Below, one piece after another: positions 19,613 to 52,372 of a DNA stretch of 64,000 nucleotides; position 1 is the stretch's first letter; the number at the start of each line of letters is the position of its first letter. The notes under the pieces are model-generated. The model was given only the letters and a program-made list of their open reading frames with translations, was not told where the DNA came from and did not search any database. This DNA is from Candidatus Moraniibacteriota bacterium. Its GTDB lineage: Bacteria; Patescibacteriota; Minisyncoccia; Moranbacterales; GCA-2747515. The stretch is taken from NCBI GenBank assembly GCA_016699795.1, contig CP065011.1:546474-610473 (forward strand), given 5' to 3'. The position numbers were made by a program, and so were the translations under genes.

Positions 19613-20743
19613 ATGGCACTTGATACTGATACTCAATTTTTTTCTGCTTTAGAGGGATCGAAATATCCTCTTGTTGTTCTCCCAGAAAATCCTTCGGGCG
19701 ATAGTATCTGTGCTGGACGTGCTCTTTCTTTGGTTTTAGAAAGATTAGGAAAGGAAGTTTCTCTTGTTTACTCTCAAACATTTGATTCTGCTTTTAATTT
19801 TGATTTTCTTTCTTGTCCAAAAGAAATACGACATAATCTCTTGGGTGTAAGAGATTTTGTTTTCATTTTTAATACAACAAGAAATCCTATTGGAAATGTT
19901 CGAACGGAACAAAGTGATGGAGAATTTCGTATTTATCTTACTCCACAGAAGGGATCAATTGACCCTCGAGATTTTTCTTTTATACCAACAGATATAAAAT
20001 ATGACAGGATTTTTCTTCTGGGTGTTCGGGATAAAGAATCTCTCGGAAATCTTTATGAGGAAAATGCAGATGTTTTTTTTGAAGTACCTCTTATAAATAT
20101 TGATGTTCGTTCTGATAATGAACAATATGCTCAAACGAACATTGTAGAAGTTACTTCTTCGAGTGTTTCAGAATTAATAACTAACCTTCTTTCTCGAGCA
20201 AAGAAGAATTATATTTCCGAAGAAATAGCACAATGCCTTTTGGCAGGAATTATTTGTGGAACGGAAAGTTTTCAATCAAGTGTGACGACGCCAAAATCAC
20301 TTCAATTCGCATCTTTTCTTATAGATAAAGGAGCTGATCAGCATGAGATTGTGAGAAATCTTTATAAGAAGCAATCTTTTTCTCTTCTTAAATTATTGGG
20401 AAAAGTTCTAGCCAAACTTCAATGGGAAGAGTCTTTGTCTATGATATGGGCTATGATTGAAATGAAAGACTTTTCTGAGAGTAAGGCAAGTTTTAAAGAT
20501 CTTCCTGCTATTATGGAGCGTATTCGAAGCTATACTTCGTCAGCTTCTTGTATTCTACTTTTATATGCTAATGAAGAAGGATTTTTTTCGGGAATTCTTC
20601 GGGCTAAAGATAAAAATATGTATATGAAACTCAATCTTATTATCCCGGGAGCAACCTTGGGAGACTATTATGTTTTTCACTGCAAAGAAAAATACACAGA
20701 AGAAGTGCAAAAAAATCTTTTGGAAAAGATAAAAACTCTCTAG
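19613..20743 (+). CDS. DHH/DHHA1-like (NrnA-like) protein with a degenerate DHH motif
   Basis: LVVLPENPSGDSICAGRALSLVLERLGKEV parallels the NrnA N-terminus but reads NPSGD rather than DHH. DHHA1-like GIICGTESFQSSVTTPKSLQFASFLIDKGAD. Confidence 0.4.
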   Translation: MALDTDTQFFSALEGSKYPLVVLPENPSGDSICAGRALSLVLERLGKEVSLVYSQTFDSAFNFDFLSCPKEIRHNLLGVRDFVFIFNTTRNPIGNVRTEQSDGEFRIYLTPQKGSIDPRDFSFIPTDIKYDRIFLLGVRDKESLGNLYEENADVFFEVPLINIDVRSDNEQYAQTNIVEVTSSSVSELITNLLSRAKKNYISEEIAQCLLAGIICGTESFQSSVTTPKSLQFASFLIDKGADQHEIVRNLYKKQSFSLLKLLGKVLAKLQWEESLSMIWAMIEMKDFSESKASFKDLPAIMERIRSYTSSASCILLLYANEEGFFSGILRAKDKNMYMKLNLIIPGATLGDYYVFHCKEKYTEEVQKNLLEKIKTL

Positions 20744-20900: not shown

Positions 20901-23900
20901 GTGAGAAAGAAGTTTAAAAAAAAATCATTTCTTCACTTCTCCCTCCCTGTATTCTCTGGGATTTTTCTTTTTCTCTTTTTTTCTTTTTCTTCTCCTACTC
21001 ATGCTTCCACTGTAACCTGGACAGGAACAACAAGCACTGCTTGGACTACAGTAACGAACTGGAATACAGGAACTGTTCCTACAAGCACAGATGATGTTGT
21101 TATAAATTACACAGGAACGAATCAACCTACACTCGATGTAAATGGTGGAACCATTACTATACAATCTCTTACTCTTGGAGGAGGAGCATCAACTTCTACT
21201 CTTACGCTTTCTTATGGATCGCCTACAAACAAATTTATTGTTACGGGGAATGTAACGATTCTTGATAAAGGGTATCTTACGCATCCCTTTAATGATTCTG
21301 TAGAAACGCATAGACTCTTTATGGATGTCGGAGGAAATCTCGATGTTCAAACCGGAGGACAGATTAATGTGGATGGGAAGGGGTATAGTGGTGGTCCAGG
21401 ATTTGGTACATATGGGGGATCTTATGGAGGACAAAGTGCTACCGGAGGAACTATGGGGATAACATATGGGTCTTACTTAAATCCTGAAAATATTGGGAGT
21501 GGAGGGACTTCTATAAGTGGAGCTGGCTCTGTCATTCTTAATGTTACCGGCTCTGTTTTTTTAAATGGCTCCATAACTACAATAGGTTCTGATAGGGGTG
21601 CTTCTGCTGGATCTGGAGGGTCTGTAAATATTTCAACAACAACTTTTTCAGGTGCGGGAGTGATAAAGGCGAATGGAGGTGGTGCTAATGGTGGAGGTGG
21701 TCGCGTTGCTGTAAAACTTACAAGTGGAAATGACTTTGGATCGGTTACAATGCAAGCATATGGAACAGCAACTGGAACTATTTATACCGAAACCGCAAGT
21801 CAAGGATCAGGAAATGGAACGGTGATTATTGATAATAATAATCGAGCATCATCTGTATTTACTGTAATTCCATCTACCCAAACATGGACCATTAAAAATC
21901 TTGTTCTAAGAAACAAAGGGCAAATTAGTGTCCCCACAGGAACGACTCTTATTCTTGACAATCCCAACTCTGTAACCGGACTTGCTGGATCATCAGCAAT
22001 AGATAGTGGCATTGCTCTTCGAGGAGGAACCTTCGATCTTCCCCAAGGATTGCTCAATATTGAAAACTGGGCACTTATTGCAGATCTTCCTCATACACTC
22101 AATGGAGATATTATCGTCAAATCCGGAGGATATATGACTCATAGTGCTAATGGAAGTACCGAACTCTATAAAATGAATCTTACGATTAATGGGAATCTCG
22201 ATGTTCAAACCGGAGGACAGATTAATGTGGATGGGAAGGGGTATAGTGGTGGTCCAGGATTTGGTACATATGGGGGATCTTATGGAGGACAAAGTGCTAC
22301 CGGAGGAACTATGGGGATAACATATGGGTCTTACTTAAATCCTGAAAATATTGGGAGTGGAGGGACTTCTATAAGTGGAGCTGGCTCTGTCATTCTTAAT
22401 GTTACCGGCTCTGTTTTTTTAAATGGCTCCATAACTACAATAGGTTCTGATAGGGGTGCTTCTGCTGGATCTGGAGGGTCTGTAAATATTTCAACAACAA
22501 CTTTTTCAGGTGCGGGAGTGATAAAGGCGAATGGAGGTGGTGCTAATGGTGGAGGTGGTCGCGTTGCTGTAAAACTTACAAGTGGAAATGACTTTGGATC
22601 GGTTACAATGCAAGCATATGGAACAGCAACTGGAACTATTTATACCGAAACCGCAAGTCAAGGATCAGGAAATGGAACGGTGATTATTGATAATAATAAT
22701 CGAGCATCATCTGTATTTACTGTAATTCCATCTACCCAAACATGGACCATTAAAAATCTTGTTCTAAGAAACAAAGGGCAAATTAGTGTTCCCACAGGAA
22801 CCACTCTTGATCTTACTAATGCAACTATTACCAATGATGGACTCGGAACAAGTGGAATCAATGTAAATGGAGGAACTCTTTTAACTCCCGAAACAGTTAC
22901 CGTAAATGGAATATTCCTAAACATTACAGCTCCACAAACTATAAATGGAAATCTTATTCTTGGTGGGGGATCTACAACATCTACACTTACTGTAAGTAAT
23001 GGTTCTCCCACAAATAAATTCACCGTTACCGGAAATGTTACTATTGCCAACAATGGTTATCTTACCCACACAGCAAACACAAATGCAGAAACCCATAGAC
23101 TCTTCATGGATGTCGGAGGAAATCTCGATGTTCAAATTGGAGGAAAGATTAATGTGGATGGGAGGGGATATGGGGCGGGGTATGGACCGGGAATTTGTAA
23201 ATACAATAATACTTTTACTGCTTCATATGGAGGAAATAATATAGTGGATTGTGGCGGATTTGTTTACGGATCTCTTTATAATCCAGTTAATTTAGGAACT
23301 GGAGGGAATAATAATTCAGGGGGGGGGATCTATTGTTTTGAATGTTGCTGAATCAGTAATTATTTCTGGCTCAGTAACAGCAAATTCTGGATCTTCAAGT
23401 AATACAGGCACAGGAGGATCTATTAATATAATTACTGGAAGCATAAGTGGTTCAGGATCTTTAAAGGCAAATATGATTTCTAATGCTGGCGGAAGCAGTG
23501 GTGGTCGCATCGCCGTTAAACTTACTTCAGGAAATGATTTTGGGTCGATTGTAATGCAGGTATTTGGAGGACCCTCAGGATGTGGAGCTTTTCCTTGTGG
23601 AACCGCAGCAGCCGGCACTATCTACACTGAAACTGCCTCTCAAGGCCCCAACAATGGCACCCTCACCATAGACAATAACAATCAAACAGCTACCGTCCAA
23701 ACCCTCATCCCCCAAGACAACTTCACCAACAACTCCCTCTCCCTTGGAAACATCATTGTAAAAAACAAAGGACTTCTTGCCATTCCTACAGGAACCACTC
23801 TTAACACTACAGGAGACATAACCATAGGAACTCTTAACTCTTCTACTGACACCTCACACATAGTAGCCAATGGAACAGGAACTCTCATTTCTACCAATCT

Positions 23901-26900
23901 CACTATTCATGGAGTAAGTGGTACAGGAGCATCCATAAACACCAACACGAAAGGTTACACTCCTACTCTTGGAACAGGAGCAGGAACAACAGGCTCTCTT
24001 GGATATGGATCAGGAGGAACATATGGAGGAAGAGGAGGAAATAGTAGTGATGGAGCAACTTCCCCTAACACCTATGGAAATGACTTTGTTCCCGAAGATC
24101 TTGGAAGTGGAGGAGGAAAGTCTACAGGAGGAACAGGAGGAGGAGATATACGAATCAGAACGAATAACAATCTCAACCTCTATGGAACCATATCCAGTAA
24201 CGGTAGCGCTGGACTCACCAATGGTGGAGGAGGATCAGGAGGATCTATAAACATACTCTATGCAAAAAACTTCACCATAAACGGTGGAAAGCTTCAAGCC
24301 AATGGTGGGGCGGGACAAGGTGGTGGAGGAGGAGGGGGAGGAGGAAGAATCGCCTATGCCTATGAAAACAAAACATTTACCAATCAAACGATTCAAACAC
24401 TCGGAGGAACAAAAGGAGCTACCGCACCTGCAACTGATGGAAGCGCAGGTTCACTTAAATCTGGATACCTTGCTGGTTCTCTTATCTCTTCAGCATTTGA
24501 TTCCAGTAGTGATGCTAATGTCATGGGAACAATAGAATGGAAAGAAAATGAAATACTCCCAACAGGTTCTTCAGTAACTCTTTCTCTCAAAACTGCAGGA
24601 ACGAAAGGAAATCTTTCTTCTTCCCCCTGGATACAAATAGCACAATCTACTCCCTCTTCTCTTACTACACATTGTACAAAAAACAATACAACGGTAAGTT
24701 GCACAGCCAGTGCTATCCCTCAAGATATGAAAGATATCTTTGAAGATCGCTTCTTTCAATACAAAGTAGATCTTTCTTCTCCTGACCTTCTTTCTCAACC
24801 TCAAGTCGATGATGTAAAAGTAGGCTATGTTGTGAATGCTTTCCCTATGATTCAAAATGTAACCACTACTCCCAATACTGATAAAACAGTAACTATCACG
24901 TACGAAACAAAAGATGAAGATACCAATACCGGAACCAATACTCCAGGAATAGTTACTCCGAGCTTTGAATACTACAATGGAAGTAGTTGGATCAATATCG
25001 CTTCCAATACTCTAGCTCCCGAAGATATACAAAACAAAACAGTGAATCAAGATACGTACACAACACACAGTGCTACCTGGACTCCTTCTCTCGTAAGTGA
25101 ATCTTTCTATCTTACCAATGCAAAAATCCGTGTAACCGTAAGTGACAATGAAGGAGCGAATAATATCGCACGAGCTGAATCAAATACCTTTACCCTCGAT
25201 ACAAAAACTCCCACCAATCCCTCCCTCCTTGTTGATGCTTCCACTCAAGACCTCACCATTCCCTCCACCACATCTGTTCTTACTCTTGGAGTCAGTGATG
25301 ACTCTCCAACACAGATGAAGATTTCTCTTGACGAAAACCTTACCAACTCTCCTTGGGAACCTTTTAATGCAACGGTAACAATAAAACTCGAAACTGATCC
25401 CGACATTGTCTATACTCGCTTCAAAGATCAATACGGGAATGAAACACAAACCATACACACAACTACTCCAGAAACTCCTACACGAGTCATTTCTCAAGAT
25501 ACGAGTAATATGCTTCTTACCCCTCCAGAATACCGAGCCTTCGTAGGATTCAAAACAATAGAAGAACCTCCAACAGGATTCGGAAACTACAAACTCTATA
25601 GAAGTGATGACGCTACTACCTATACGCTTCAAAATATCATAACCTCAAGAACAACAAACTTCCTTACTGATGCTACCCCACAACCAGACATTCTCTACAC
25701 CTACAAAGCAAAGACAACAGACACACCAGGAAATGTTTCTTTCTTCTCACAAACCGTTACGATGAAAGCAAATGGTATTCAAGACTTCGGAGAAGGTGGA
25801 GGAGGATCAGATCAAACCCCTCCTGTTCTACAAAACGTAACCGTAGAATCTAAAGACACCACAACCGTAACTATCACATGGGAAACAGATGAACTCTCTG
25901 ACTCTCGTGTAGAATATGCAACCACTCCCAACACCTATACCAAACAAACAGGAGTCTCTACCTATGCTGACACCCAAGCACAATCAGGACTTCATAGAGT
26001 CACTCTTACCAACCTCACACCAAACACTCCCTACTTCTTTAGAGTTGCCTCTACTGATCCTCAAGGCAATACCGGAGTCAATGACAATAATGGCAATGGA
26101 TATGAAGTCACAACGAATCCTGGACCTTCTATCAGTGGTGTAGCGGTATCAAGTGCTTCTAACACACAAGCAACCATATTCTGGAATACGAATGTCCCTG
26201 CAGACTCTGTACTCCATTACAGTGAAAACAAGAATGGATCTCTTATCGATCCTATCACTCTCTCCGGATCAAGTGTTCTTACAAAAAATCATCAAGTAAC
26301 CTTAGATGCTCTTACTCAAGGAACCACCTACTATTTCTACGTTACCTCCACCGACTCACAAGGAAACATTGCCAATGACAATAATGGAGGAAACTATTTT
26401 CAATTCTCTACAACACTCGACGAAACACCTCCTACCATAACGAATCTTCAAACATCTCTTATCTCAAATGACAAAGCAGTTATTACAGCAAACACAGATG
26501 AAGAAGCATCCTTCCTCCTTCAGTACAGAAAAAAAGGAAGCCTTACCTTCACACAAACAGAACAAGGAACAACATACGATAGATCTCACTACAGGGTACT
26601 CGATACTCTTACTCCTGATACAGAGTATGAATATCAAGTGAGTGTTAAAGATATCAATCAAAACGAATCACAGAGTGATATACAAACAATGAAAACAACC
26701 TTAGATCCAGAATACAATCATGCACCTCTTTCAAAGATTCATACTATCAGTGATCCTCCTAAAGTACTCACTGATCAAAAAGCAGTCATAACCTTCCAGA
26801 CGGATCAAGCAGCAAACTGCATCCTTGAATATGGAACCCAATCAAGAAACTACCAAGAAGTTCCTCAAACAGAAGCGACAGGAATCTATGACACACTCCA

Positions 26901-28257
26901 TTCCCTGCATCTTGGAGGACTCATCTTTAACACAACCTACTTCTACAAACTTCTTTGTGAAGATAATCTTGGAACCCTCATAGAGAGTGAAGAAAAAAGC
27001 TTCACAACAAAACTCAAACAAGTAGACAGTGGAAGTGAACAAGCAGAATCTACTCCTCCCTCTATCTCAGGAGTCAAAGTCAAAGACATTACAGGAGAGA
27101 GTGCAGTCGTCAGTTGGGAGACGGATGAAGTTTCAAACTCACAGGTGAGGTATGGGACGACGAAGGAATTCGGGTCTGGGTCAATAGACGACACAGTCAA
27201 CTCCTCCCTCCAAAACTACACCACCTCCCACTCCGTAACTCTCCGAGGCCTCATCCCATCTACCAAATACTACTACTCCGCCCTCTCTCTCGACACCGCC
27301 GGAAACATAGGCACCTCCTCCCAACAAACCTTCCAAACGCAATCTCCTTCTTCCATCTCTTCCATTAAAGCTTCTTCCAAACAAATAGGGGAAACAACTA
27401 TCACATGGAAAACTTCCACTCCCACTACCTCTATTGTTGAATATGGAAACACAGAAAACTATGGACAAACAAGAAAAAGTGAAGAACTCAAAAAAGATCA
27501 TGAAATTATCATAAACAATCTTTTAGAAAACTCTACCTACCACTTCCGAGTAAAAGGAGAAGATGAATCAAAAAATCTCTTCTCTTCTTCCGACTCTACC
27601 TTTGAACCAAAGTCTCCACCACAAATCAAAGAAATCAAGATAGAAGTTCTTTCAGACAGAGAAGCAAAAGTAAACTTCCTTACTGATACTCTTACCGACT
27701 CTCTTGTAACCTACAAAAACAAAAACAAAGAAGAAGATCAAAAGAGTGAAGGAAATCCCTCCCTCCTCCAAACTCACTCCCTCACCCTCAAAGAACTCAC
27801 TCCTGGAGAAAACTACGTTCTTACTGTACGAGTCAGAGATGATATGGGAAATGAAACTCTCTCTGATGAGATAGAATTCACTATGCAAAAAGATGAAACT
27901 TCTCCTACAGTAGAAAGAGTCTCTACCGACTCCGCTCTTTCACAAAACGGAAAAGTACAAATGATTATTAACTGGCAAACAGATGAAGATGCTTCTTCCT
28001 CCCTCATCTACAAAGAAGGAAGAGCAGGAGAAGAAAAAACAGTGAATGTAAGTTCTTCCCCAACAAAGAATCACATCATTGTACTCACCTCTTGGAAACC
28101 AGGAACTCTCTACTCTTACAAAGTCATAGTAAAAGATCTGAGTGGGAATGAAACCATAACCAAAGACTACATCACCCTTACACCACAAACAAAAGAATCT
28201 GTTGTAGAACTCATCATAAAGAACTTCAAAGAAATCTTTGCTTGGACGGGAGGGTAG
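20901..28257 (+). CDS. Giant secreted surface protein (~2450 aa if joined) split into ORFs 20901..23351 and 23338..28257 by a frameshift at a G9 tract. It has a signal peptide, a thrice-repeated Gly-rich beta-helix-like module and about eight FN3/purple-acid-phosphatase-N-like domains.
   Basis: The module continues across the frame break: ..NLGTGGNNNSGGG|SIVLNVAESVI.. parallels the earlier ..NIGSGGTSISGAGSVILNVTGSVF.. FN3-like units have the form TITWETDELSDSRVEYATT...HRVTLTNLTPNTPYFFRVAS. Confidence 0.75.
21333..22798 (+). repeat. Exact in-frame tandem duplication, period 858 bp (286 codons). About 605 bp is 100% identical between the copies. A diverged third copy begins near 23090.
   Basis: aatctcgatgttcaaaccggaggacagattaatgtggatgggaaggggtatagtgg... 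recurs at 21335 and 22193. Protein segment NLDVQTGGQINVDGKGY...KNLVLRNKGQISVPTGTTL is duplicated. Confidence 0.9.
23319..23327 (+). repeat. Homopolymeric G9 tract at the frame break of the giant gene
   Basis: ttcagggggggggatc. With G8 (or G11) the two ORFs fuse in frame. Confidence 0.85.
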
Positions 28258-28462: not shown

Positions 28463-31400
28463 ATGGTTCAAGTTATTCGCGGACAGGCAAAAGATGATAC
28501 ACGACAAGAGCGAACATTCCTTGCTAAAAAGGTCATGGAAAAGATGCGGAGTCGGAGCGAAGAAGAGCAAGCCTCTTTATTAGCTCAAAGTCTAGGTTTT
28601 CCTTATGTGGACCTTAATATTATACCAATCAATACCGACTATGTCCGACTTATGTCTGTAAAGATGGCGTTGGAAAATGAAACGGGAATATTTTTGCGAA
28701 GAGCTCATGTAATTTATGCTGTTTTGACGAGACTAGATAATGAAAATGCAAAAAAAGTTGTTCAAGAAATAGCTGATGAGAATGGATGGACAGTTTTGTG
28801 GCATATTGTATCAAAAACTTCCCTCATACGTTTACATGAGCGATATAAGAAATTCTCTTTTTTTGAGAGCATTGACAACATGAAGCTCGATCTTTCTGCT
28901 GATGATTTTTCTGCATTGCAAAAAAAGTTTTCTGATATACTGGCACTCAAAAAAAATATCCTTAGCATGACAACAACGCAAACACTTTCTCTTGTGGTTG
29001 CAAGTGCTGTTTCTCTGAGGGCAAGTGATATTCATTTTGAGCCCCAAGATGAAGGTGTTCGTATGCGTTATCGTTTGGATGGTGTCTTACAAGATATTGG
29101 AATACTTCCATTTGAATCATATAAATACATTGTTTCTCGTATAAAGATGATGGGAAACATGAAATTAAATATTCGAAAAAGTTCTCAAGACGGACACTTT
29201 TCCTTCGAAGTAAATAATCAAGAAACAGGCATTACAAAACATCGTATTGATATTCGAGCAAGTTTATTACCGAGTCGATTTGGAGAAACGTTGGTAATGC
29301 GTATTTTGGATCAGAAGGGTGTTTTTTTGGATATAGCAGAATTGGGTCTTCGTGGTTATGCTTTTGAGCAACTACAAGAACAGATGAAAAGAACGAGTGG
29401 AATGGTTATAACGACAGGGCCAACCGGATCAGGAAAAACAACACTTCTTTATAGTATTCTCAAACAACTCAATGAACCGGGGGTAAAAATAATAACCATA
29501 GAAGATCCTGTGGAATATGAAGTAAAAAACATATCCCAAACGAACGTTTCCAAAGAAGATGGCTATACTTTTTCAACAGGATTACGCTCTATCGTTCGTC
29601 AAGATCCTGATATTATTCTTGTTGGAGAAATCCGTGATGATGATACTGCAAATATTGCTATTCAAGCAGCTCTTACAGGACACTTTGTTCTTTCTACTTT
29701 GCATACAAATAGTGCTGCGGGTTCTATACCAAGACTTATTAATCTTGGTGTAAAACCATCACTCATACCATCTTCTGTAAATGCTTTTATAGCACAACGT
29801 TTGGTTAGAAAATTATGTTTAGACTGTAGGGAATCATATGCTCCTGCGGAGAAAACAAAAGAAATGATTACAAAAATCATCGCTCTTATCTCACCAAAAG
29901 CTAGTGTGGCAATCCCAGCGTCATTGGAAGTCCTCTATAGACCAAAAGGTTGTTTGAAATGTAATTATACTGGATATAAAGGAAGAATAGGAATTTTTGA
30001 AATACTTTTTGTAACAGAGGGTATTGTGCAAAAAATAGAGGAATTAGCTTCAGAAATGGAAATTACAACAGCTGCTATTGAGGATGGAATGATTACTATG
30101 ACGCAAGATGGTATTCTTAAGGCTGTTGAGGGTATTACTTCTATGGAAGAAGTGTGGAGAGTGGGAGGACAATTTCAGTTTCTTGAAGATGTATATGAAA
30201 AATTAATGATGAGTTATCTTAACCGAGCTCTTTATATACCCTACACAATGCACAAAGAGATTCAGGATGCCGTTAGTACAGTTTCAAGCTTTCAGTCACA
30301 TATAGAAACCGCCCCTTCAGAAGAATTTTTTCAGAGAATTGTTTCGTATGCAGTATCTCTTGGAGCAGAAGATATTCATGTTGAACCAGAAGAGGCTGAT
30401 GTAAATATTCGTTTTCGTATAGATGGTGTATTGCAATCGGTGGCACATCTTCCTATGAGTCATTACCCAGTTTTTTTGGGTAAAATAAAACTTCTTTCTG
30501 GTATAAAAACAGAGGAACTCGCAGGACTTCGTGATAGTCGGTTTACTATAAAAAGGGAATTGGAAAATTCTTTGGATACGGAGTCAATCGATGTTCGTGT
30601 CTCAATTATTTTGGGAGGCTATGGAGAAACCGCCGTGCTTCGTCTTCTTAATATCGGAGCTCAAGCGAAGGATCTTTTTTCTTTGGGTATGAGAAAAGAA
30701 ACTCAACAAAAACTTGAAGAAGCAATGAAGACTCCCAATGGTGTTATCCTTACTACAGGACCAACGGGGTCGGGTAAGTCAACAACGCTTTATAGTATTC
30801 TTTCCAAACTCAATGAACCACATAGAAAAATCATGACTGTGGAAGATCCTATTGAATATAGAATAAGTGGAGTACTTCAAACACAAACAGATGAATCAAA
30901 AGGGTATAGCTTTTCTGTAGCACTTCGAGCACTTCTTCGTCAAAATCCCGATATCATTCTTGTAGGAGAAATTCGTGATGGAGAAACGGCAACTATGGCG
31001 GTACAATCTTCACTTACGGGTCATTTAGTTTTTTCAACATTGCACACAAATGATGCTCCCTCAGCTATACAACGATTATTGAATATGGGAGTTTCCCCTC
31101 AAGACATTGTTGGTGCTATTAATTTCGTTATGGCTCAAAGACTTGTGAGGACGTTGTGTGAATGTAAGCGACAAAGAGAAGCGACAGAGGAGGAGCAACG
31201 AGATATGTACGCTTTTTATTCGCAGTATGCAAAAGTTATAAACTTAAAAACAATGCCAGATTTTTCTCATGTATACGAACCTGTTGGATGTAAAAAATGT
31301 CGAGGAATCGGCTATTCCGGAATGGCTATGATTAGTGAAGGATTCGATATGAAAGACGAAGCCTTCCGAGATATTATTATGAGAGGAGGATCGATTTATG

Positions 31401-31516
31401 AAATTCGTCGAATCGCTATTGAAAATGGAATGATACCAATGGTGGTTGATGGTATTGATAAGGCTATTTCTGGAGTAACAAGTTTGGAAGATGTTCGTCG
31501 TGTGACGGAATTATAA
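28463..31516 (+). CDS. pilB: Tandem-fused double type II/IV secretion ATPase (two complete PilB/GspE modules in one 1017-aa chain)
   Basis: Module 1 has a GspE_N domain, GPTGSGKTT, IITIEDPVEYEV, DPDIILVGEIRD, TGHFVLSTLHTNSA, and CxxC...CxxC. Module 2 has GPTGSGKST, IMTVEDPIEYRI, DPDIILVGEIRD, TGHLVFSTLHTNDA, and CEC...CKKC. Confidence 0.85.
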   Translation: MVQVIRGQAKDDTRQERTFLAKKVMEKMRSRSEEEQASLLAQSLGFPYVDLNIIPINTDYVRLMSVKMALENETGIFLRRAHVIYAVLTRLDNENAKKVVQEIADENGWTVLWHIVSKTSLIRLHERYKKFSFFESIDNMKLDLSADDFSALQKKFSDILALKKNILSMTTTQTLSLVVASAVSLRASDIHFEPQDEGVRMRYRLDGVLQDIGILPFESYKYIVSRIKMMGNMKLNIRKSSQDGHFSFEVNNQETGITKHRIDIRASLLPSRFGETLVMRILDQKGVFLDIAELGLRGYAFEQLQEQMKRTSGMVITTGPTGSGKTTLLYSILKQLNEPGVKIITIEDPVEYEVKNISQTNVSKEDGYTFSTGLRSIVRQDPDIILVGEIRDDDTANIAIQAALTGHFVLSTLHTNSAAGSIPRLINLGVKPSLIPSSVNAFIAQRLVRKLCLDCRESYAPAEKTKEMITKIIALISPKASVAIPASLEVLYRPKGCLKCNYTGYKGRIGIFEILFVTEGIVQKIEELASEMEITTAAIEDGMITMTQDGILKAVEGITSMEEVWRVGGQFQFLEDVYEKLMMSYLNRALYIPYTMHKEIQDAVSTVSSFQSHIETAPSEEFFQRIVSYAVSLGAEDIHVEPEEADVNIRFRIDGVLQSVAHLPMSHYPVFLGKIKLLSGIKTEELAGLRDSRFTIKRELENSLDTESIDVRVSIILGGYGETAVLRLLNIGAQAKDLFSLGMRKETQQKLEEAMKTPNGVILTTGPTGSGKSTTLYSILSKLNEPHRKIMTVEDPIEYRISGVLQTQTDESKGYSFSVALRALLRQNPDIILVGEIRDGETATMAVQSSLTGHLVFSTLHTNDAPSAIQRLLNMGVSPQDIVGAINFVMAQRLVRTLCECKRQREATEEEQRDMYAFYSQYAKVINLKTMPDFSHVYEPVGCKKCRGIGYSGMAMISEGFDMKDEAFRDIIMRGGSIYEIRRIAIENGMIPMVVDGIDKAISGVTSLEDVRRVTEL

Positions 31517-31526
31517 AAACAAAAAG

Positions 31527-31552
31527 CATCCGTATGATATATACGGATGCTC
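31527..31552 (+). terminator. Perfect 10-bp hairpin (GCATCCGTAT-gata-ATACGGATGC) after pilB. No clear T-tract follows.
   Basis: aaagcatccgtatgatatatacggatgctctgg lies 11 nt after the stop. Confidence 0.4.
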
Positions 31553-31841
31553 TGGAAGATTTCCTCATGTGAGAATCCGCGGAAGATCTCCCCCATCTAT
31601 CGACAAAGGAGTTAAGAACAGTTCTCAGGTTTGGCCCAGCTCAGCACCAAGCCGACCTTGAAAGAAAAGTTCCCACCTGAGGAGAAAAGATAGAACTCCC
31701 CAGGGATCCGCGGATTTCCGCATAAGGAAATGAAAAAGGAACAATTTAATGTAGCATATACCCAAAGAGTTGTCAAGACCCTATTGATTTTTTTAGAAAA
31801 GAAGATAAAACTTTAAAGAAATAGAAAGGAGGTGTATTTTT

Positions 31842-33756: not shown

Positions 33757-33843
33757 GGAAGCGTGGCCGAGTGGTCGAAGGCGCTTGCTTGGAGTGCAAG
33801 TGTGCGGGAAACCGCACCGGGGGTTCGAATCCCTCCGCTTCCG
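33757..33843 (+). tRNA. tRNA-Ser (anticodon GGA), long variable arm; CCA not encoded
   Basis: GGAAGCG acceptor stem. D-arm GCCGAGTGGTcGAAGGC. Anticodon stem-loop CTTGC-TTGGAGT-GCAAG. Variable arm TGTGCGGGAAACCGCACC. T-arm GGGGGTTCGAATCCCTC. 3' acceptor CGCTTCC. Confidence 0.85.
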
Positions 33844-34227
33844 CAGTGAATGAAGTGAACGAGGAAAGCGAGCAGGCAAAGAGTTTTGCCTACGTGAGGA
33901 TGAGAAGGGACGTACGAAGCGACACGGTCGCCGAATGTCCCCGGCCCAAAGGGGAATCCCTCCGCTTCCGCAAAAATTACTTTTTTAGACTTTATAGTCT
34001 GAAAAAAGGAGTTTCTATAGCAGATACCTGAGGATTCGAACGGGTAGGAGCGAGTGATGAACCGAAACTTGAGAGGTGAATCAAACGAGCGTCGACAAAC
34101 GCGAATGTATGAGCGTTTGGCGCCACCCCGGACAACGAGTCGTCGTTTCGATGATGAGGCGAAAATCCCTCCGCTTGGGCAGGTGAATGAAGTGAACGAG
34201 GAAAGCGAGTAGGCAAAAAGTTTTGCC
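33826..34227 (+). repeat. Direct repeats of the tRNA-Ser 3' end and its 45-nt downstream segment (att-like scars)
   Basis: aatccctccgcttccgca at 33826-33843 and again at 33955-33972; a 13-nt version at 34164-34176. The 45-nt downstream segment gtgaatgaagtgaacgaggaaagcgag[c/t]aggcaaa[g/a]agttttgcc occurs at 33846-33890 and 34183-34227. Confidence 0.7.
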
Positions 34228-41209: not shown

Positions 41210-41283
41210 TCCGGGATGGCGCAGCGGTAGCGCAGGTGACTGTTAATCACTTGGTCGTCGGTTCGAATCCGACTCCCGGAGCA
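41210..41283 (+). tRNA. tRNA-Asn (anticodon GTT)
   Basis: TCCGGGA acceptor. D-arm GCGCagcggtaGCGC. Anticodon stem-loop GGTGA-CTGTTAA-TCACT. T-arm GTCGGTTCGAATCCGAC. 3' acceptor TCCCGGA followed by G and CA. Confidence 0.85.
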
Positions 41284-42874
41284 GAACTGGAGAACTAGAG
41301 TATAAAAGCTCTAGTTTTTCTTTATCTTCGGGCAAATTCGTAGGTTCGAACTGCTTGAATATCGTCTTTATCTCAGAAGAGATTTTTTCAAGGCCGACTA
41401 ACTTATTATTGGCTTCAATATTGAGTTTTTTCTCAGAAAGTGAGAGGTTCGAACCAATTGCCTTGAATATCTCTTTTCGCTTTTCTTCGTCGCCATCCTT
41501 GAATTTTTCTAGTGCATCTTGGGCGAATGCAAGCCATTCCTTGGCTTCTTCAAGTTGGTCTATCCAGTTGGTTGAATTGCTCTCAGAAGCGTCCAAACTT
41601 GCTCTAAGGCGTGATTTTTCTTGGGATATGGTATCTTTCTTGGTAATGAACTCACCTTCGCTTAGCTCGCCATTTATTCGCATATCTAGGAGTCTATCTA
41701 GCTTTTTGTCACAAGCTTCGAATTCTTTTTTGTGATCCTCGAGTGCTTGTTTCTTTTCTTCGATTTCATCCCTATTTTCTTCCATCAGTTTTTTGATTGC
41801 CCATTCCAAGAAAGTTGGATGAATCTTTATTTTCTTGAGAATTTTTATAATTTCTTCTTCAAACTTCTTTTCTTCGACCACTTTTTGATCACATTTTGGA
41901 TCTAGTCGATGACTGCAATGATAGTAGATGTAATAATGGGTGTTTCCATTCTGACATTTTTTAATTTTGTGTTCAGCTACAACTGATGCTCCGCATATTC
42001 CGCATCGTGTTGCTCCAGTATATTTGAAACTATATTTTCTTGGCCTAGTCGTTCCTCGTCGGCCGAGAATCATTTGAGTCTTTTCAAATTCCGCTTGAGA
42101 GATCATTGGCTCATGCTTTCCTTTATGCCATTGTCCGCTATCAGATGGGAATTCATACCAGCCATAGTAGAATGGGTTATTCATCATTGCATACCATGAG
42201 CTGATGGAAACTTTTTGACCATGCTTGTTTGTAAATTTCCAATCGCTAGTTCCTTTTCTATATGCCTCCGGGGGAGTGAGCTTTCCTGAAGCTACCATCT
42301 TCAGCATTTTTTGAATCGTTTCAAATCTTTCAGGGTCTTTTTCAATTTCTTTTTCACCTTTTAGTTTGATGGGATTGTGTTTGTATCCGAGTGGCGACCC
42401 ATTAGGATACCAACCTCGCTCTGCTTTGTTTCGTAGCCCTCGCTTTGTGTCAGTGCTTAAGTCTCGAATGAATTGATTTGCCATTCCTTGCTCTACAGCC
42501 ATCACCAGAACATTATCTTCAGGGTAATAACTTCTTCCGAATGTAAAAATATGTTTTATCATCTTACCCTGTAGCATCCAACTTATCGTACCGCTATCTA
42601 CAGGATTTCTAGACAGGCGATTAAGTTTCCAACAAAGTATTCCATCAGCTTCACCCCGTTTTATTTTTTCAAACATTTCGTTAAAAACTATCCTCCCAGG
42701 CTCTTTGGCTGATTTGGATTCATGCATAATTTCAGATATATTCAACCCGTTTTCTTCTGCGAGTCTTTTTAACTCTTCTATTTGTGAGTCGATTGATGCC
42801 ATTTGTCGATCCTCACTTTCGGATGATTTTCTGGCATAGAGGATGTATTTATTTGCCTTCACTTCTTGGTTCAT
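41243..42874 (-). CDS. Large serine recombinase (integrase)
   Basis: N-terminal resolvase domain YILYARKSSESEDRQMASIDSQ (catalytic Ser). Recombinase domain. Zinc-ribbon CGICGASVVAEHKIKKCQNGNTHYYIYYHCSH. Coiled-coil. 543 aa. Confidence 0.85.
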   Translation of the reverse strand: MNQEVKANKYILYARKSSESEDRQMASIDSQIEELKRLAEENGLNISEIMHESKSAKEPGRIVFNEMFEKIKRGEADGILCWKLNRLSRNPVDSGTISWMLQGKMIKHIFTFGRSYYPEDNVLVMAVEQGMANQFIRDLSTDTKRGLRNKAERGWYPNGSPLGYKHNPIKLKGEKEIEKDPERFETIQKMLKMVASGKLTPPEAYRKGTSDWKFTNKHGQKVSISSWYAMMNNPFYYGWYEFPSDSGQWHKGKHEPMISQAEFEKTQMILGRRGTTRPRKYSFKYTGATRCGICGASVVAEHKIKKCQNGNTHYYIYYHCSHRLDPKCDQKVVEEKKFEEEIIKILKKIKIHPTFLEWAIKKLMEENRDEIEEKKQALEDHKKEFEACDKKLDRLLDMRINGELSEGEFITKKDTISQEKSRLRASLDASESNSTNWIDQLEEAKEWLAFAQDALEKFKDGDEEKRKEIFKAIGSNLSLSEKKLNIEANNKLVGLEKISSEIKTIFKQFEPTNLPEDKEKLELLYSSSPVLLRESDSNRRPSD

Positions 42875-42950
42875 TGTTTTTATATTAATTGATTAGTTTC
42901 TTCAACAAACATCATACTCTAAAACGTTACTAAAGCTAGTGGATAAAAAG

Positions 42951-43409
42951 CTACATTTCGTACCAGTTAACATCCTCATTAGCGTTGCTTTTGCTGTCCT
43001 TCTTTTCTTCTTTTTCCTCTTCATCGTCATCAAACATGTCCATTATGAGGCTTGGCTTTTTAATTTCAAGCTCTTTTTTCTCTTTGAATCGTTCAGGTTC
43101 CATCCTTTCAAGCCACCATGCTCCAGCCTTCCAATCTTTCAACATTCCTACTTTTATGCTCTTGTGAGCGAGCTTATGGGTTTCTAATTTAGCAGTCTCT
43201 AATCGTTCGCAAAACCCGCAAAACCTTTTTTTATGTCTTATGATTGTGTCCTCACTTATACCCACATAAACACATGCTTTTGATTGGCTCATGCCGTCAG
43301 ACAGAAGGTTTATAAGGATAGTTTCTTTATCTTTCGTAATTGCAAAAGGACGACCGTTTTTACTGCCTTTGATTTTTTTGTTTGATTTAACCTTTAATTG
43401 TTTCGTCAT
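42951..43409 (-). CDS. Helix-turn-helix DNA-binding protein (excisionase/regulator or terminase-small-like)
   Basis: HTH-like ILINLLSDGMSQSKACVYVGISEDTIIRH. Acidic C-terminus. Confidence 0.4.
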   Translation of the reverse strand: MTKQLKVKSNKKIKGSKNGRPFAITKDKETILINLLSDGMSQSKACVYVGISEDTIIRHKKRFCGFCERLETAKLETHKLAHKSIKVGMLKDWKAGAWWLERMEPERFKEKKELEIKKPSLIMDMFDDDEEEKEEKKDSKSNANEDVNWYEM

Positions 43410-45856: not shown

Positions 45857-47845
45857 ATGAACGATGCATATTTTGGAAATAAAAAGATTTGTATAACGCA
45901 AAGACGTTATCTTGGCTCTAAAACTAAGCTACTATCATTTATAGATAGTATACTTGAAGGTGAGAATATAGAGTTTAATTCTTTCGCTGATATTTTTGCT
46001 GGAACTGGCACTGTTGCCAATCATTTTTATAATCGCTCTAAAATTATAGTGAATGATATTTTAGATTCAAATTCTCATGTCTACACAGCGTTTTTTGGTA
46101 AGGACATAATCAGGGAACAAAAACTGAAAGAACGACTAAAACATTATAATGACATTGAAATCAAAGAATATGATGAAAATTATTTTTCAAAAAACTTTTC
46201 AAACACTTATTTTGACGCAGAAAACGCTAAAAAAATAGGAATTATTAGGGATGATATTGAAAAATTATTTGAAGAAAAAATAATTACCAGTAGAGAAAAA
46301 TCTTATTTACTGACATCTTTGATTTACGCACTTGATAGAATTGCCAACACGGTTGGCCATTACGACGCATACAGAAAAATTGATATTCCAAATAAAAAAC
46401 TATTCTTGCTACCCCTTGATATAGCAAACTCTCGCTACTCTGCCAAAATCTACAAAGATGACGCTAATGAGTTGGTAAAAAAAATAAAAGCAGATGTTGT
46501 TTATATTGACCCGCCGTATAATTCTAGGCAGTATTCAGATTCTTATCACTTATTAGAAAATATCGCTACTTGGAAAAAGGAGACAGTTTTTGGTGTTGCC
46601 AAAAAAATTGACCGCTCTCACATCAAAAGCGAGTACAACATGAAATCTGCAGGCGTTGCCTTTGGCGATTTAATAGATAATATTAATGCGAAATATATCC
46701 TTGTTTCTTATAATGATATGGGGACTTCGGGTAATGCTCGTTCACAATCACGTATCAGTGACCATGAGATTTTGTCGTCGTTAAAACGGCGAGGTGAGGT
46801 AAAAGTCTTTGAAACCAACTTCAAACAATTCACTACTGGAAAATCGAGCAAGGATGATCTAAAAGAACGCATATTTTTGTGTAAGGTAGACATTGTCTCA
46901 AGAAACAATAAGGCGATAATTGCCTCAAAAAATAATCCTGTTCAAGCTGGCTTTGTAAAATCACCCCTTAACTACACTGGCGGAAAACATAAACTTTTAC
47001 CGCAAATAACAAAGTTATTTCCAGTTGGTATAAAAACTTTTTATGATGTATTTTCTGGCGGTGCGAATGTTGGAATTAACTCTACGGCTAAAAATATAAT
47101 CTGTATTGAAAAAAATCGTTATGTAGTAAGTCTGTTGAAGTTAATACAAAATGATAATTTTGAAGATTTGAATCAAAAAGTGATTGACATTATAGATAAA
47201 TTTGGTTTAAGCCAGAGCTATATAAAGGGCTACGACCATTATAATGTGGATAGTTCATCGGGTCTTGGTCAATACAATAAAGACGCTTTTCTAAATCTTC
47301 GCAGTGAGTTTAATAAAGAAAAAACAAGAATTGATTTATTGTTGGTGCTTGTTTTGTATTCTTTCAATAACCAAATTAGATTTAATTCAAATGGCGATTT
47401 TAATTTACCAGTTGGAAAACGGGATTATAATGGTAGTTCGAGGAGAAATGTTGCGTCTTTCAGCCAAGTATCAAACGAGAAAAAAATAGCATTTAAAAAT
47501 TGTGATTTTCGTGATGTTGAAAAAATGTCATTAATGAAAGATGATTTTGTGTATTTAGATCCACCATATTTGCTGGGTCTTGCTAGTTATAATGAAAAGG
47601 GAGGCTGGACAGAAAAAGATGAGAAAGACTTATATATACTCTTGACCAGACTCGATAAGAAAGGAATTAGATTTGCTTTATCAAATGTTTTAGAGCATAA
47701 AGGCAAAACTAATACAATTATGAAAAACTGGGCAAAAAAGCATAGTTACAAGATTCATAAACTAAACTATGACTACAAAAACTCAAATTATCACTCTACT
47801 GCAAAAAATAATAAAACCGTAGAGGTGCTTATTACAAATTACTGA
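45857..47845 (+). CDS. Fused tandem N6-adenine DNA methyltransferase (two D12-class/Dam-like domains), type IIS-style M subunit
   Basis: Domain 1: YLGSKTKLL, FAGTGTVA, VVYIDPPYNS. Domain 2: NYTGGKHKLL, FSGGANVG, FVYLDPPYLLG. Same architecture as M.AlwI/M.PleI/M.MlyI. Confidence 0.85.
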   Translation: MNDAYFGNKKICITQRRYLGSKTKLLSFIDSILEGENIEFNSFADIFAGTGTVANHFYNRSKIIVNDILDSNSHVYTAFFGKDIIREQKLKERLKHYNDIEIKEYDENYFSKNFSNTYFDAENAKKIGIIRDDIEKLFEEKIITSREKSYLLTSLIYALDRIANTVGHYDAYRKIDIPNKKLFLLPLDIANSRYSAKIYKDDANELVKKIKADVVYIDPPYNSRQYSDSYHLLENIATWKKETVFGVAKKIDRSHIKSEYNMKSAGVAFGDLIDNINAKYILVSYNDMGTSGNARSQSRISDHEILSSLKRRGEVKVFETNFKQFTTGKSSKDDLKERIFLCKVDIVSRNNKAIIASKNNPVQAGFVKSPLNYTGGKHKLLPQITKLFPVGIKTFYDVFSGGANVGINSTAKNIICIEKNRYVVSLLKLIQNDNFEDLNQKVIDIIDKFGLSQSYIKGYDHYNVDSSSGLGQYNKDAFLNLRSEFNKEKTRIDLLLVLVLYSFNNQIRFNSNGDFNLPVGKRDYNGSSRRNVASFSQVSNEKKIAFKNCDFRDVEKMSLMKDDFVYLDPPYLLGLASYNEKGGWTEKDEKDLYILLTRLDKKGIRFALSNVLEHKGKTNTIMKNWAKKHSYKIHKLNYDYKNSNYHSTAKNNKTVEVLITNY

Positions 47846-47848
47846 TTT

Positions 47849-51364: not shown

Positions 51365-52372
51365 ATGACATTGATTCTAGGTGTCCACATGGCCACAAAA
51401 ACATTTTTAATATCAGATACTAGACTTACTAAGCAAATGAGCGATGGCAGTTTTAAGTATGAAGATACTATCAATAAATCTTTTTCTTTGAACAAAAGAA
51501 TGAGTGGGATAGCGGCAGGACATGTTCAGCTTGCCGCTTTTGTGTTGAAGAAATTGAGGGAAAAAATTTCAGATGATTCTTTTATGATGGACTTAGAAAA
51601 AACAATCAATGAAAATGCAAACGATATCATTAAGGATTTTGTAAATACAACAATGATGACTAATCAGTTTACGGCAATGATATTCGCAGGATTTGATCGT
51701 GGTAGGGGGAAGAAAATAGGGGCAGCCATGCTTGGAAATGTAATGTCTGCAGAGTTAGCCTCTAGGGGAAATGGTTCGAGAATGAATCAGGCCGTTCATG
51801 CTAAAATTAAAGATGCATTAGCAGAAAATCTGATAAAAAGGGGTACGCTTGGAAAGGACTCCTTTATTGATGTAGATTTACCAAATTCAAGAATGCTTTC
51901 CCTGAAAATTGGAACTCGTCAATATGCCAATGGAAACTTCTATGAATTAAAAGAAATTGAATGCTATAACTATGTTTCTTTCTATCCTGATCAAGAATTC
52001 AAGAGCGTTATTTTGCCAAATACCTTGTTAACAAGTATTGAATTTCCTGAATTTGAGACTGTTTCCCCAAAAGAAGATGCTTTTGTTTATAGTGACTCAA
52101 TCAAGCTTATCAATTTTGTAAGGAAGGTTGTTAGGGAAAATAACTTTGTAAATGTTGGCGGCAATATCTTTCCTTTAATAGTTTTGCCTGAAGGGAGTAT
52201 ATTTCCTACGGGAGATATTGCAGTAATGGAAGATGGGAGACCCAAGATTATTGGGGGAATTCATTCTATCGATAATGTTTTATGCTATACATTGCCTGAT
52301 GGCACAAAAGGTCAATTTCAAACTATTGAGGGCTTGGGCGAAAATCCTTCAGTTACTCAATTACAAATATGA
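51365..52372 (+). CDS. Proteasome beta/HslV-like N-terminal nucleophile hydrolase homologue with a ~140-aa C-terminal extension (operon gene B)
   Basis: After Met removal, TLILGVHMATKTFLISDTRLT aligns with archaeal beta TTTVGITLKDAVIMATERRVT (Thr1, Gly5, Asp/Glu17, Arg19, Thr21). Also SGIAAGHVQLAAFVLKKL versus GMTIAGLVGDAQVLVRYM, and MIFAGFDRG versus LLVGGID. Confidence 0.45.
   Translation: MTLILGVHMATKTFLISDTRLTKQMSDGSFKYEDTINKSFSLNKRMSGIAAGHVQLAAFVLKKLREKISDDSFMMDLEKTINENANDIIKDFVNTTMMTNQFTAMIFAGFDRGRGKKIGAAMLGNVMSAELASRGNGSRMNQAVHAKIKDALAENLIKRGTLGKDSFIDVDLPNSRMLSLKIGTRQYANGNFYELKEIECYNYVSFYPDQEFKSVILPNTLLTSIEFPEFETVSPKEDAFVYSDSIKLINFVRKVVRENNFVNVGGNIFPLIVLPEGSIFPTGDIAVMEDGRPKIIGGIHSIDNVLCYTLPDGTKGQFQTIEGLGENPSVTQLQI

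What the first reader, a model, noticed from the sequence alone, without database searches (positions are those of the whole stretch)
28463..31516. Single-chain tandem fusion of two complete PilB/GspE secretion ATPase modules
One 1017-aa ORF contains two full N2-plus-ATPase modules. Each has intact Walker A (GPTGSGKTT / GPTGSGKST), Asp box, Walker B (DPDIILVGEIRD in both), His box and a Cys4-type zinc motif. Only module 1 has the GspE_N domain. Canonical PilB is a homo-hexamer of ~570-aa chains. A covalently linked dimer implies a trimer-of-dimers motor with potentially asymmetric subunits. No pilC/pilM/pilin genes are adjacent.
Basis: seen in the sequence. Interest (0 to 1): 0.7.

Follow-up and report, generated by a model that had tools for sequence, protein, structure and literature searches.

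The report
Tandem double PilB pilus-motor ATPase
This is a real, widely conserved gene of tiny Patescibacteria (mainly Moranbacteria) that joins two complete, apparently active PilB-type pilus-motor ATPases in one chain; it sits beside a normal pilus system rather than replacing it, and could serve as a natural covalently linked motor for testing how these rings work.

Summary
Window 28463-31516 (+) is one uninterrupted 1017-aa ORF with an N1 domain, then N2D+ATPase module 1, a 57-aa linker and N2D+ATPase module 2.

The fusion is not an artefact:
- An 88%-identical 1017-aa orthologue lies on 20 independently assembled contigs.
- More than 120 protein clusters have the same length.
- 72 of 80 species-representative genomes, mostly Ca. 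Moraniibacteriota/Parcubacteria, carry one ORF with two Walker A motifs.

Every catalytic or nucleotide-sensing residue mapped from Geobacter PilB, and all four zinc cysteines, is invariant in both modules (86/86). The one exception is the R257 equivalent, which is lost in module 1 only.

New facts:
- It is an extra paralogue. A complete Moraniibacteriota genome holds both the tandem gene and a canonical pilM-pilB-pilT-pilC-pilin-pilD operon about 400 kb away.
- An NrnA-like DHH phosphoesterase gene lies directly upstream in most relatives. In this window a 7.6-kb insertion separates the two.
- A conserved ~110-nt structured RNA candidate follows the gene.
- One three-module variant exists.

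The trimer-of-dimers ring is plausible but untested. I found no paper describing this architecture. Verdict: new variant of a known kind, of moderately high interest.

The parts
28463..31516 (+). Tandem PilB-type ATPase gene (1017 aa plus stop)
   Evidence: Uninterrupted ORF. Two T2SSE domains. Orthologues of 1005-1030 aa in more than 120 clusters.
28547..28852 (+). N1 domain (aa ~29-130), divergent GspE_N/MshEN type, present once
   Evidence: Weak Pfam MshEN hit, aa 44-129, 13.9 bits. Aligned to PilB N1 in TIGR02538 and to Geobacter PilB 6olj. Mean pairwise identity among orthologues is 38%.
28991..29332 (+). Module 1 N2D (aa 177-290), with arginines R265 and R280 (equivalent to Geobacter R271 and R286)
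   Evidence: The R257 equivalent is H245 here, and H/T/S in 82 of 86 orthologues.
29333..30163 (+). Module 1 ATPase CTD (aa 291-567): Walker A 29417-29440, Asp box, Walker B, His box, Cys452/455/497/500
   Evidence: All invariant in 86 of 86 sequences.
30164..30334 (+). Inter-module linker (aa 568-624) with a conserved helix (F573, L574, Y578)
   Evidence: L574 and Y578 are invariant and F573 is nearly invariant in alignment A1. AF2 predicts helices 571-586, 594-603 and 607-616. The rest is poorly conserved, 39% identity.
30335..30673 (+). Module 2 N2D (aa 625-737) with R693, R712 and R727, all invariant
30674..31513 (+). Module 2 ATPase CTD (aa 738-1017): Walker A 30758-30781, Asp box, Walker B, His box, Cys899/901/943/946
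19613..20743 (+). NrnA-like DHH/DHHA1 phosphoesterase gene, the conserved upstream partner of the tandem gene in relatives
   Evidence: Pfam DHH. Profile matches NrnA, Rv2837c and TM1595 structures. Directly upstream on the same strand in 62 loci, and present in 69 of 72 loci with enough upstream DNA.
20901..28257 (+). Window-specific ~7.6-kb insertion between the DHH gene and the tandem gene: an 816-aa secreted protein and a 1639-aa fn3-rich protein
   Evidence: GC 41% against 34%, with reversed GC skew. Domains. Signal-peptide-like N-terminus. Absent at this position in the 88%-identical relative and in most loci.
31523..31553 (.). 13-bp hairpin just after the stop codon, terminator-like
   Evidence: The scan reports the hairpin on the minus strand, where it is followed by a T run. 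It is listed here only as a stem-loop next to the stop codon.
31613..31702 (+). Conserved ~110-nt structured RNA candidate downstream of the tandem gene
   Evidence: nhmmer E=2.4e-11. Present in 73 of 84 loci, median 164 nt after the stop. Covarying helices. No Rfam match.

Best explanation
The gene encodes a genuine, selectively maintained tandem duplication of a PilB/GspE-type type-IV-filament assembly ATPase. The layout is N1D, then [N2D-CTD] module 1, a structured linker, and [N2D-CTD] module 2. Shown: both modules keep every residue needed for ATP binding, Mg2+ coordination, catalysis, gamma-phosphate sensing, the pore and zinc binding. Both modules evolve at similar rates. The architecture is conserved across Moranbacteria and other Parcubacteria, and it coexists with a canonical T4P operon that has its own PilB. 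Inferred: three chains assemble into one six-module ring, a trimer of covalent dimers, in which module 1 and module 2 alternate. Such a ring would carry only three N1 domains and would have built-in three-fold rather than six-fold symmetry. The ring would dock on a PilC-type platform encoded elsewhere and act as a second, specialised filament-assembly motor. In the Moranbacteria clade the two site types differ, because the R257-equivalent arginine is lost in module 1 only.
For: - Real and conserved. That is 20 contigs of the 88% orthologue, more than 120 clusters, about 14 clusters at 50% identity, and 72 of 80 species genomes with a two-Walker-A ORF.
- Family assignment: Geobacter PilB, 328 bits; TM-score 0.85-0.90 normalised to the target, for one module against PilB/PilF.
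- Both modules intact. I mapped residues to Geobacter metallireducens PilB from the alignment, using the roles described in McCallum et al. (10.1101/082750). T327, K331, E357, E395, T411, H413, H420, R271, R286, R455 and the four Cys are 86/86 in both modules. The pore E400 equivalent is acidic (E or D) in all 86.
- Similar constraint: CTD pairwise identity is 0.715 for module 1 and 0.668 for module 2.
- Asymmetry: the R257 equivalent is R in 86/86 module 2 but H/T/S in 82/86 module 1. Canonical Moranbacteria PilB has QDGR in 117 of 120.
- Divisors of six: a diverged 3-module orthologue (1460 aa) sits at the syntenic locus.
- Three-fold partner: the platform protein PulF is proposed to be a trimer that fits the ATPase hexamer (PMC10790770).
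- Extra paralogue: genome CP064989.1 carries the tandem gene at 635-658 kb and a pilM-pilB-RR-pilT-pilC-pilin-pilD operon at 236-258 kb. L084 carries both within 9 kb.
Against: - There is no direct evidence on oligomeric state. The AF2 monomer has pTM 0.59, so the relative placement of the modules is not confident.
- A stacked double ring fits the same sequence data.
- No pilC, pilM or pilin gene is a conserved neighbour in 84 loci. A canonical PilB already exists in the same genomes, so a role in pilus assembly is not required by the data.
- Each module alone scores well below the NCBIfam PilB/GspE equivalog cut-offs (439 and 388 against 676 bits).
- The R257 asymmetry is confined to one subfamily.
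- The 3-module form is a single sequence from one contig.
Confidence: 0.5

Rival explanations
1. Six chains form a two-tier machine: a ring of six module-1 units stacked on a ring of six module-2 units, as in type II AAA+ proteins such as ClpB or p97. That gives 12 active sites and six N1 domains.
For: Both modules are complete and conserved. The linker is 57 aa with predicted helices and could also connect two tiers. The N-terminally extended PilF of Thermus has a solved structure as a single large 913-residue chain (6f8l).
Against: In PilT-like ATPases the main ring contact is N2D of one chain on the CTD of its neighbour, 'beads on a string'. That arrangement accommodates covalent linkage within one ring naturally. 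The copy numbers seen are 2 and 3, both divisors of 6. No known member of this superfamily forms stacked rings (my knowledge, not tested).
Confidence: 0.22
2. The tandem ATPase does not drive pilus assembly. It works with the conserved NrnA-like DHH phosphoesterase, and possibly the downstream RNA element, in a nucleic-acid or nucleotide-related process such as DNA or oligonucleotide uptake and processing, or a (di)nucleotide-controlled switch.
For: The DHH gene is directly upstream on the same strand in 62 loci, and present in 69 of 72 loci that can be assessed. It matches NrnA, CnpB and pGpG/pApA phosphodiesterases. A conserved ~110-nt element lies downstream in 73 of 84 loci. Neighbours include polA, ruvB, ruvC and tsaE. 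A canonical PilB exists for the pilus proper.
Against: The whole region is syntenic housekeeping DNA, so adjacency may reflect conserved gene order rather than function (RuvB in 65, bPH_2 in 60 and TsaE in 53 of 84 loci). In this window the DHH gene is separated from the tandem gene by a 7.6-kb insertion, with no sign of decay of either gene. The protein keeps PilB/GspE-specific features: the N1 domain, the Zn tetracysteine and the acidic pore residue.
Confidence: 0.18
3. The fusion is an artefact: two adjacent pilB genes joined by a sequencing or assembly error or a recent frameshift, or a decaying duplicate.
For: A few genomes show the gene split into two ORFs (L010, L035, L043).
Against: The same reading frame and length recur in 20 contigs of the nearest relative, in more than 120 clusters and in 72 of 80 species genomes. 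The linker contains invariant residues. Both modules are under strong constraint.
Confidence: 0.02

Closest known systems
Canonical PilB (type IVa pilus extension ATPase), e.g. Geobacter metallireducens PilB (PDB 5TSG/5TSH/6OLJ)
   Same: Same domain types (N1D, N2D, CTD), about 41-42% identity per module, and the same Walker A/B, Asp box, His box, N2D arginines, acidic pore residue and tetracysteine Zn site.
   Different: There are two N2D-CTD modules in one chain with a single N1D, 1017 aa against about 560. The gene is not in a pil operon. It coexists with a canonical PilB in the same genome. Each module is below the NCBIfam equivalog cut-off.
GspE/EpsE type II secretion ATPase (PDB 1P9R, 4KSR, 4PHT)
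   Same: Comparable scores and the same fold and Zn motif.
   Different: No T2SS genes are nearby. Patescibacteria lack an outer membrane (my knowledge). The gene is a tandem duplication.
Thermus thermophilus PilF
   Same: It is another PilB-type ATPase enlarged by internal duplication. The solved PilF chain (6f8l) is 913 residues and matches the query over its ATPase core only.
   Different: PilF multiplies the N-terminal GSPII domains and has one ATPase module (my knowledge for the domain count). Here the ATPase module itself is duplicated.
Alternating or covalently linked ring ATPases: F1/V1 A3B3 hetero-hexamers, and engineered single-chain ClpX pseudohexamers
   Same: Conceptual analogue only. 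A six-site ring is built from two non-identical, duplicated module types, or from covalently linked subunits.
   Different: These proteins are not family members. In F1/V1 one module type is catalytically dead, whereas here both appear active. ClpX linkage is man-made. This comparison rests on my knowledge and was not tested.

Membership tests
PilB/GspE-type T4F assembly ATPase (Pfam T2SSE PF00437; PilT-like ASCE secretion ATPases) | CTD with Walker A, Asp box, atypical Walker B and His box | tested here: met
   Present and invariant in both modules. T2SSE scores 710 bits in two stretches.
PilB/GspE-type T4F assembly ATPase | N2D carrying the arginines that sense the nucleotide (Geobacter R271, R286; also R257) | tested here: met
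   R265/R280 and R712/R727 are invariant. The R257 equivalent is kept in module 2 only in the Moranbacteria clade.
PilB/GspE-type T4F assembly ATPase | Tetracysteine zinc-binding motif in the CTD, which separates extension/secretion ATPases from PilT | tested here: met
   C452/C455/C497/C500 and C899/C901/C943/C946 are invariant in 86 of 86. The first pair of module 2 is CxC in this clade and CxxC in others.
PilB/GspE-type T4F assembly ATPase | N-terminal N1 (GspE_N/MshEN) domain | tested here: met
   Present once, before module 1. It is weak in Pfam (13.9 bits) but aligned by TIGR02538 and by PDB PilB, and it is called in relatives. Absent before module 2.
NCBIfam TIGR02538 type IV-A PilB / TIGR02533 GspE (equivalogs) | Score above the curated cut-off for one PilB-length unit | tested here: not met
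   Module 1 half scores 438.8 and module 2 half 388.2 against a cut-off of 675.65. Only the summed two-module score (816.7) passes. It is therefore a divergent relative and not an equivalog.
Type IV pilus / T2SS gene system | Genomic association with pilC/gspF, pilM and pilins | tested here: not met
   None in the 64-kb window. None among the conserved neighbours in 84 loci. The canonical operon is elsewhere.
PilB/GspE-type T4F assembly ATPase | Hexameric ring, ATPase activity, interaction with the platform protein | not testable with these tools
   Only a monomer model was available (pLDDT 81.5, pTM 0.59).
PilT/PilU retraction ATPase (TIGR01420) | About 350 aa, no N1D, no Zn motif, score above cut-off | tested here: not met
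   The halves score 182 and 165 against a cut-off of 319. The Zn motif and N1D are present.

The most novel reading that the evidence does not exclude
The tandem PilB is a natural covalent pseudo-hexamer with hard-wired three-fold symmetry. It would be matched to a trimeric PilC-type platform and would form, with the NrnA-like phosphoesterase and the conserved downstream RNA, a previously unrecognised Patescibacteria module. That module would be distinct from the canonical pilus, for example a dedicated nucleic-acid uptake or host-interaction filament motor.
Probability: 0.15. Interest if true: 0.85.

Novelty: new variant of a known kind. Interest (0 to 1): 0.62.

Why it matters
How ATP hydrolysis is coordinated around PilB/GspE rings is unresolved. 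So is the symmetry match to the platform protein: C2 against C3 states, and a dimeric against a trimeric PilC/GspF.

A natural single chain with two active but distinguishable modules allows mutation of every second site only. For other ring ATPases that experiment needed engineered covalent constructs.

If the protein forms a single ring of three chains, that ring has three N1 domains and three-fold symmetry. This speaks directly to the trimeric-platform model.

Biologically, many Moranbacteria and other Parcubacteria, which are thought to depend on pili for their host-attached lifestyle, keep a second and very unusual filament motor in addition to the canonical one. It has a conserved phosphoesterase partner and an adjacent conserved RNA.

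Tried and rejected
- A prepilin-motif scan of all six frames of the window found nothing.
- The first neighbour-joining run with Biopython's distance calculator timed out. I redid it with a numpy distance matrix. Deep nodes have weak support, so I use only the well-supported pairs.
I replaced it with the closer set A3.
- I first read the NJ pairing of module 1 with module 2 in P0128 and P0130 (bootstrap 99-100) as independent fusions. P0130 lies at the syntenic polA-tsaE locus, so intragenic gene conversion or re-duplication is more likely, at least for that one.
- I considered using the chimeric middle module of the 3-module protein as evidence for heterotypic N2D:CTD packing. I dropped the idea because the crossover maps to the Walker B region inside the CTD, not to the N2D/CTD boundary.
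- I looked for a c-di-GMP-binding MshEN motif in the N1 domain by eye and saw none. No claim is made.
- P0136 (1047 aa) at first looked like another tandem PilB with a dead first module. It also carries T2SSF hits and comes from a different kind of genome, so it is not part of this family.
- Seven literature searches found no description of a tandem PilB/GspE. Subscription-only papers are not covered.
- Rfam gave no match for the downstream RNA element.
Full report
**1. The observation**

Window 28463-31516 (+) is a single ATG-initiated ORF of 1017 codons with no internal stop. The opposite strand is full of stops. Pfam finds two T2SSE stretches, 710 bits in total.

Scanned separately, aa 1-576 aligns to positions 21-561 of the 564-position PilB model TIGR02538. 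Residues 577-1017 align to positions 161-563. Module 1 is therefore a full PilB including the N1 domain. Module 2 is a PilB lacking N1.

Walker A sits at aa 319 and 766. Walker B is DPDIILVGEIRD in module 1 and NPDIILVGEIRD in module 2. The Asp box, His box and four cysteines occur in both. The modules are 41% identical to each other. The closest solved structures are Geobacter PilB (328 bits). The AF2 model (pLDDT 81.5, pTM 0.59) superposes one module on PilB/PilF with TM-scores of 0.85-0.90 normalised to the target.

**2. It is not an artefact**

- The nearest orthologue (P0001, 88% identity, also 1017 aa) is on 20 contigs from different assemblies, in the same gene order.
- The 120 best clusters in the 5.8-billion-protein search are all 1005-1055 aa with 95-100% coverage, apart from one of 1460 aa. 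Where named, they are Moranbacteria, Moraniibacteriota, Parcubacteria or Patescibacteria.
- At 50% clustering there are about 14 full-length tandem clusters, down to 38% identity. One includes Ca. Paceibacterota.
- A scan of GTDB species genomes with a junction-specific alignment returned 80 loci, from 496 confirmed candidates. In 72 of the 80, a single stop-to-stop ORF holds two Walker A motifs. The rest are cut by contig ends or split.

**3. Both modules look functional**

I mapped the functional residues of G. metallireducens PilB through the alignment. The chain index is offset by 20, which I checked on Walker A T327. The residue roles come from McCallum et al. (10.1101/082750).

| Role (Geobacter residues) | Module 1 | Module 2 |
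|---|---|---|
| Walker A T327, K331 | 86/86 | T 85/86, K 86/86 |
| Asp-box E357, Walker B E395 | 86/86 | 86/86 |
| T411, His-box H413 and H420 | 86/86 | 86/86 |
| R271, R286, R455 | 86/86 | 86/86 |
| Four Zn cysteines | 86/86 | 86/86 |
| Pore E400 | E/D in all | E/D in all |
| R257 equivalent | H/T/S in 82/86 | R in 86/86 |

Orthologue-to-orthologue identity is similar for the two CTDs (0.715 and 0.668) and the two N2Ds (0.616 and 0.639). The N1 domain (0.38) and the linker (0.39) are looser.

The R257-equivalent arginine salt-bridges the Asp-box Glu at the open ATP-analogue interface. The canonical PilB of the same lineage has QDGR in 117 of 120 sequences. The loss in module 1 is restricted to the Moranbacteria subfamily, because other tandem subfamilies keep R in both modules. 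The 57-aa linker contains an invariant L574 and Y578 and a nearly invariant F573, in a predicted helix.

**4. Evolution**

In the main family, module 1s group together near stand-alone PilBs and module 2s group separately. This is consistent with an old duplication, although deep bootstrap values are low.

In P0128 and P0130 the two modules are each other's closest relatives (55% and 74% identity, bootstrap 99-100). P0130 lies at the syntenic polA-tsaE locus. Gene conversion or re-duplication is therefore the likelier reading for it.

One orthologue at the syntenic position (P0002, 1460 aa) has three modules with three Walker A motifs. Its middle module is module-2-like up to about the Walker B motif and module-1-like after it. 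That is the expected product of unequal crossing-over at the near-identical Walker B segment. The three modules are only 42-57% identical, so this is not a recent misassembly. It is still a single sequence.

**5. Context**

No pilC, pilM or pilin gene occurs in the window. I clustered all ORFs from 84 loci. The conserved neighbours are:

| Neighbour | Loci (of 84) |
|---|---|
| ~375-aa DHH protein | 73 |
| RuvB | 65 |
| bPH_2 protein | 60 |
| TsaE | 53 |
| LTD/PKD surface protein | 36 |

PolA, YebC, RuvC and ATP-grasp genes also recur. No T2SSF, PilM or pilin family appears among the conserved neighbours.

The DHH protein is directly upstream on the same strand in 62 loci. It is present in 69 of the 72 loci that have enough upstream DNA. 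Its profile matches NrnA, Rv2837c and TM1595-type nanoRNase/dinucleotide phosphodiesterases.

In this window the DHH gene (19613-20743) is separated from the tandem gene by two large ORFs (20901-28257) encoding a secreted protein and an fn3-rich protein. Their GC content is higher and their GC skew is reversed. They are absent in the 88% relative, so this is a local insertion.

**6. It is an extra paralogue**

Locus L084 (Ca. Moraniibacteriota) carries a canonical operon 3-9 kb downstream of the tandem gene. It holds pilB (578 aa, MshEN+T2SSE), a response regulator, pilT, pilC and three prepilins.

The complete genome CP064989.1 carries the tandem gene (P0047) at 635-658 kb. It also carries pilM, two small ORFs, pilB (P0314, 556 aa), a response regulator, pilT, pilC, a pilin, pilD and further pilins at 236-258 kb. 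Both tandem modules are only 38-43% identical to that canonical PilB. Whether the window's own genome has such an operon cannot be told from 64 kb.

**7. Mechanism**

PilT-like ATPases are rings of six 'packing units', each made of the N2D of one chain and the CTD of its neighbour, joined like beads on a string. A covalent link from the CTD of module 1 to the N2D of module 2 fits that topology. Three chains would give six modules with module 1 and module 2 alternating, three N1 domains and intrinsic three-fold symmetry. The three-module variant would give a ring from two chains.

This agrees with the trimeric platform model for PulF (PMC10790770). It would place module 1 opposite module 2 in any C2-type state. 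All of this is inference. A stacked double ring of six chains is the main structural rival, and neither could be tested here.

As for function, the PilB-specific features argue for a filament-assembly motor. These are the N1 domain, the Zn site and the acidic pore residue. The existence of a canonical PilB, the lack of pil neighbours and the conserved DHH partner leave a different role open.

**8. Comparison and novelty**

It works like, and is homologous to, PilB/GspE. It meets the motif and domain criteria. It fails the NCBIfam equivalog thresholds per module and the operon-context criterion. So it is a divergent PilB-family paralogue with a new architecture.

Public records name these proteins only as 'GspE/PulE family protein' or 'PilB'. 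Seven full-text searches found no description of a tandem PilB/GspE. I rate it a new variant of a known kind, with interest 0.62.

**9. Side finding**

A ~110-nt element lies on the same strand just downstream of the tandem gene. In the window it is at 31613-31702, and the median distance from the stop codon is 164 nt. It is conserved in 73 of 84 loci. It shows compensatory changes in at least two helices, folds better than shuffles (z=-3.2) and has no Rfam match.

Noticed in passing
window 31613-31702 (+); also e.g. L085:3618-3728, L013:11599-11709, L001:14645-14750: A conserved ~110-nt non-coding element lies just downstream of the tandem pilB on the same strand, in 73 of 84 related loci. 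It has covarying helices and a conserved AGCCGAAACC loop, and it has no Rfam match. It is a candidate new structured RNA of Moranbacteria.
   Followed up: partly
window 19613-20743 (+) and the equivalent gene in L001, L004-L085: An NrnA-like DHH/DHHA1 phosphoesterase of about 375 aa lies directly upstream of the tandem pilB in most relatives. In the consensus the position of the classic DHH motif reads D-x-H-S, and that His is less than 90% conserved, so the motif may be degenerate. It may be a functional partner, or the adjacency may be only synteny.
   Followed up: partly
window 20901-28257 (+): A ~7.6-kb insertion holds an 816-aa signal-peptide protein with no Pfam match and a 1639-aa protein with seven Pur_ac_phosph_N/fn3-like repeats. 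Its GC is 41% against 34% with reversed GC skew, and it is absent at this site in the 88%-identical relative.
   Followed up: partly
L004:10001-14383 (protein P0002): A three-module (1460 aa, three Walker A) version of the gene sits at the syntenic locus. Its middle module is a chimera that switches from module-2-like to module-1-like at about Walker B. It is a single sequence from one 77-kb contig.
   Followed up: yes
L087:8001-11144 (protein P0136): In a non-Patescibacteria-like context (ECF sigma factor, sulfatase, BatA/VWA genes), a 1047-aa protein combines T2SSF (PilC-type) hits with two T2SSE regions. The first region has a Walker A Lys-to-Thr change and a degenerate Asp box. It may be a platform-ATPase fusion with a dead module.
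   Followed up: no
L084:14473-20455 (-) and L086:7351-18491 (+): The canonical Moranbacteria T4P operons include a stand-alone response-regulator receiver gene between pilB and pilT.
   Followed up: no
window 45857-49681 (+): A restriction-modification pair: a D12-class N6-adenine methyltransferase (662 aa, two MTase stretches) followed by an AlwI-family endonuclease (610 aa).
   Followed up: no
window 41243-43409 (-): A large serine recombinase (543 aa) lies next to a small HTH protein, in a stretch with inverted GC and AT skew. It may be the edge of a mobile element.
   Followed up: no
window 51365-52372 (+): A 335-aa ORF has a weak proteasome-subunit match (PF00227, E=4e-7), flanked by ORFs with no family match.
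   Followed up: no
window 33757-33844 (+): tRNA-Ser (GGA). The 86-aa ORF listed at 33771-34031 overlaps it and is probably spurious.
   Followed up: yes
window 62588-63640 (-): A 350-aa ORF matches only the C-terminal third of AcrB-type RND transporters (model positions 718-1020). It may be a truncated gene or a pseudogene.
   Followed up: no
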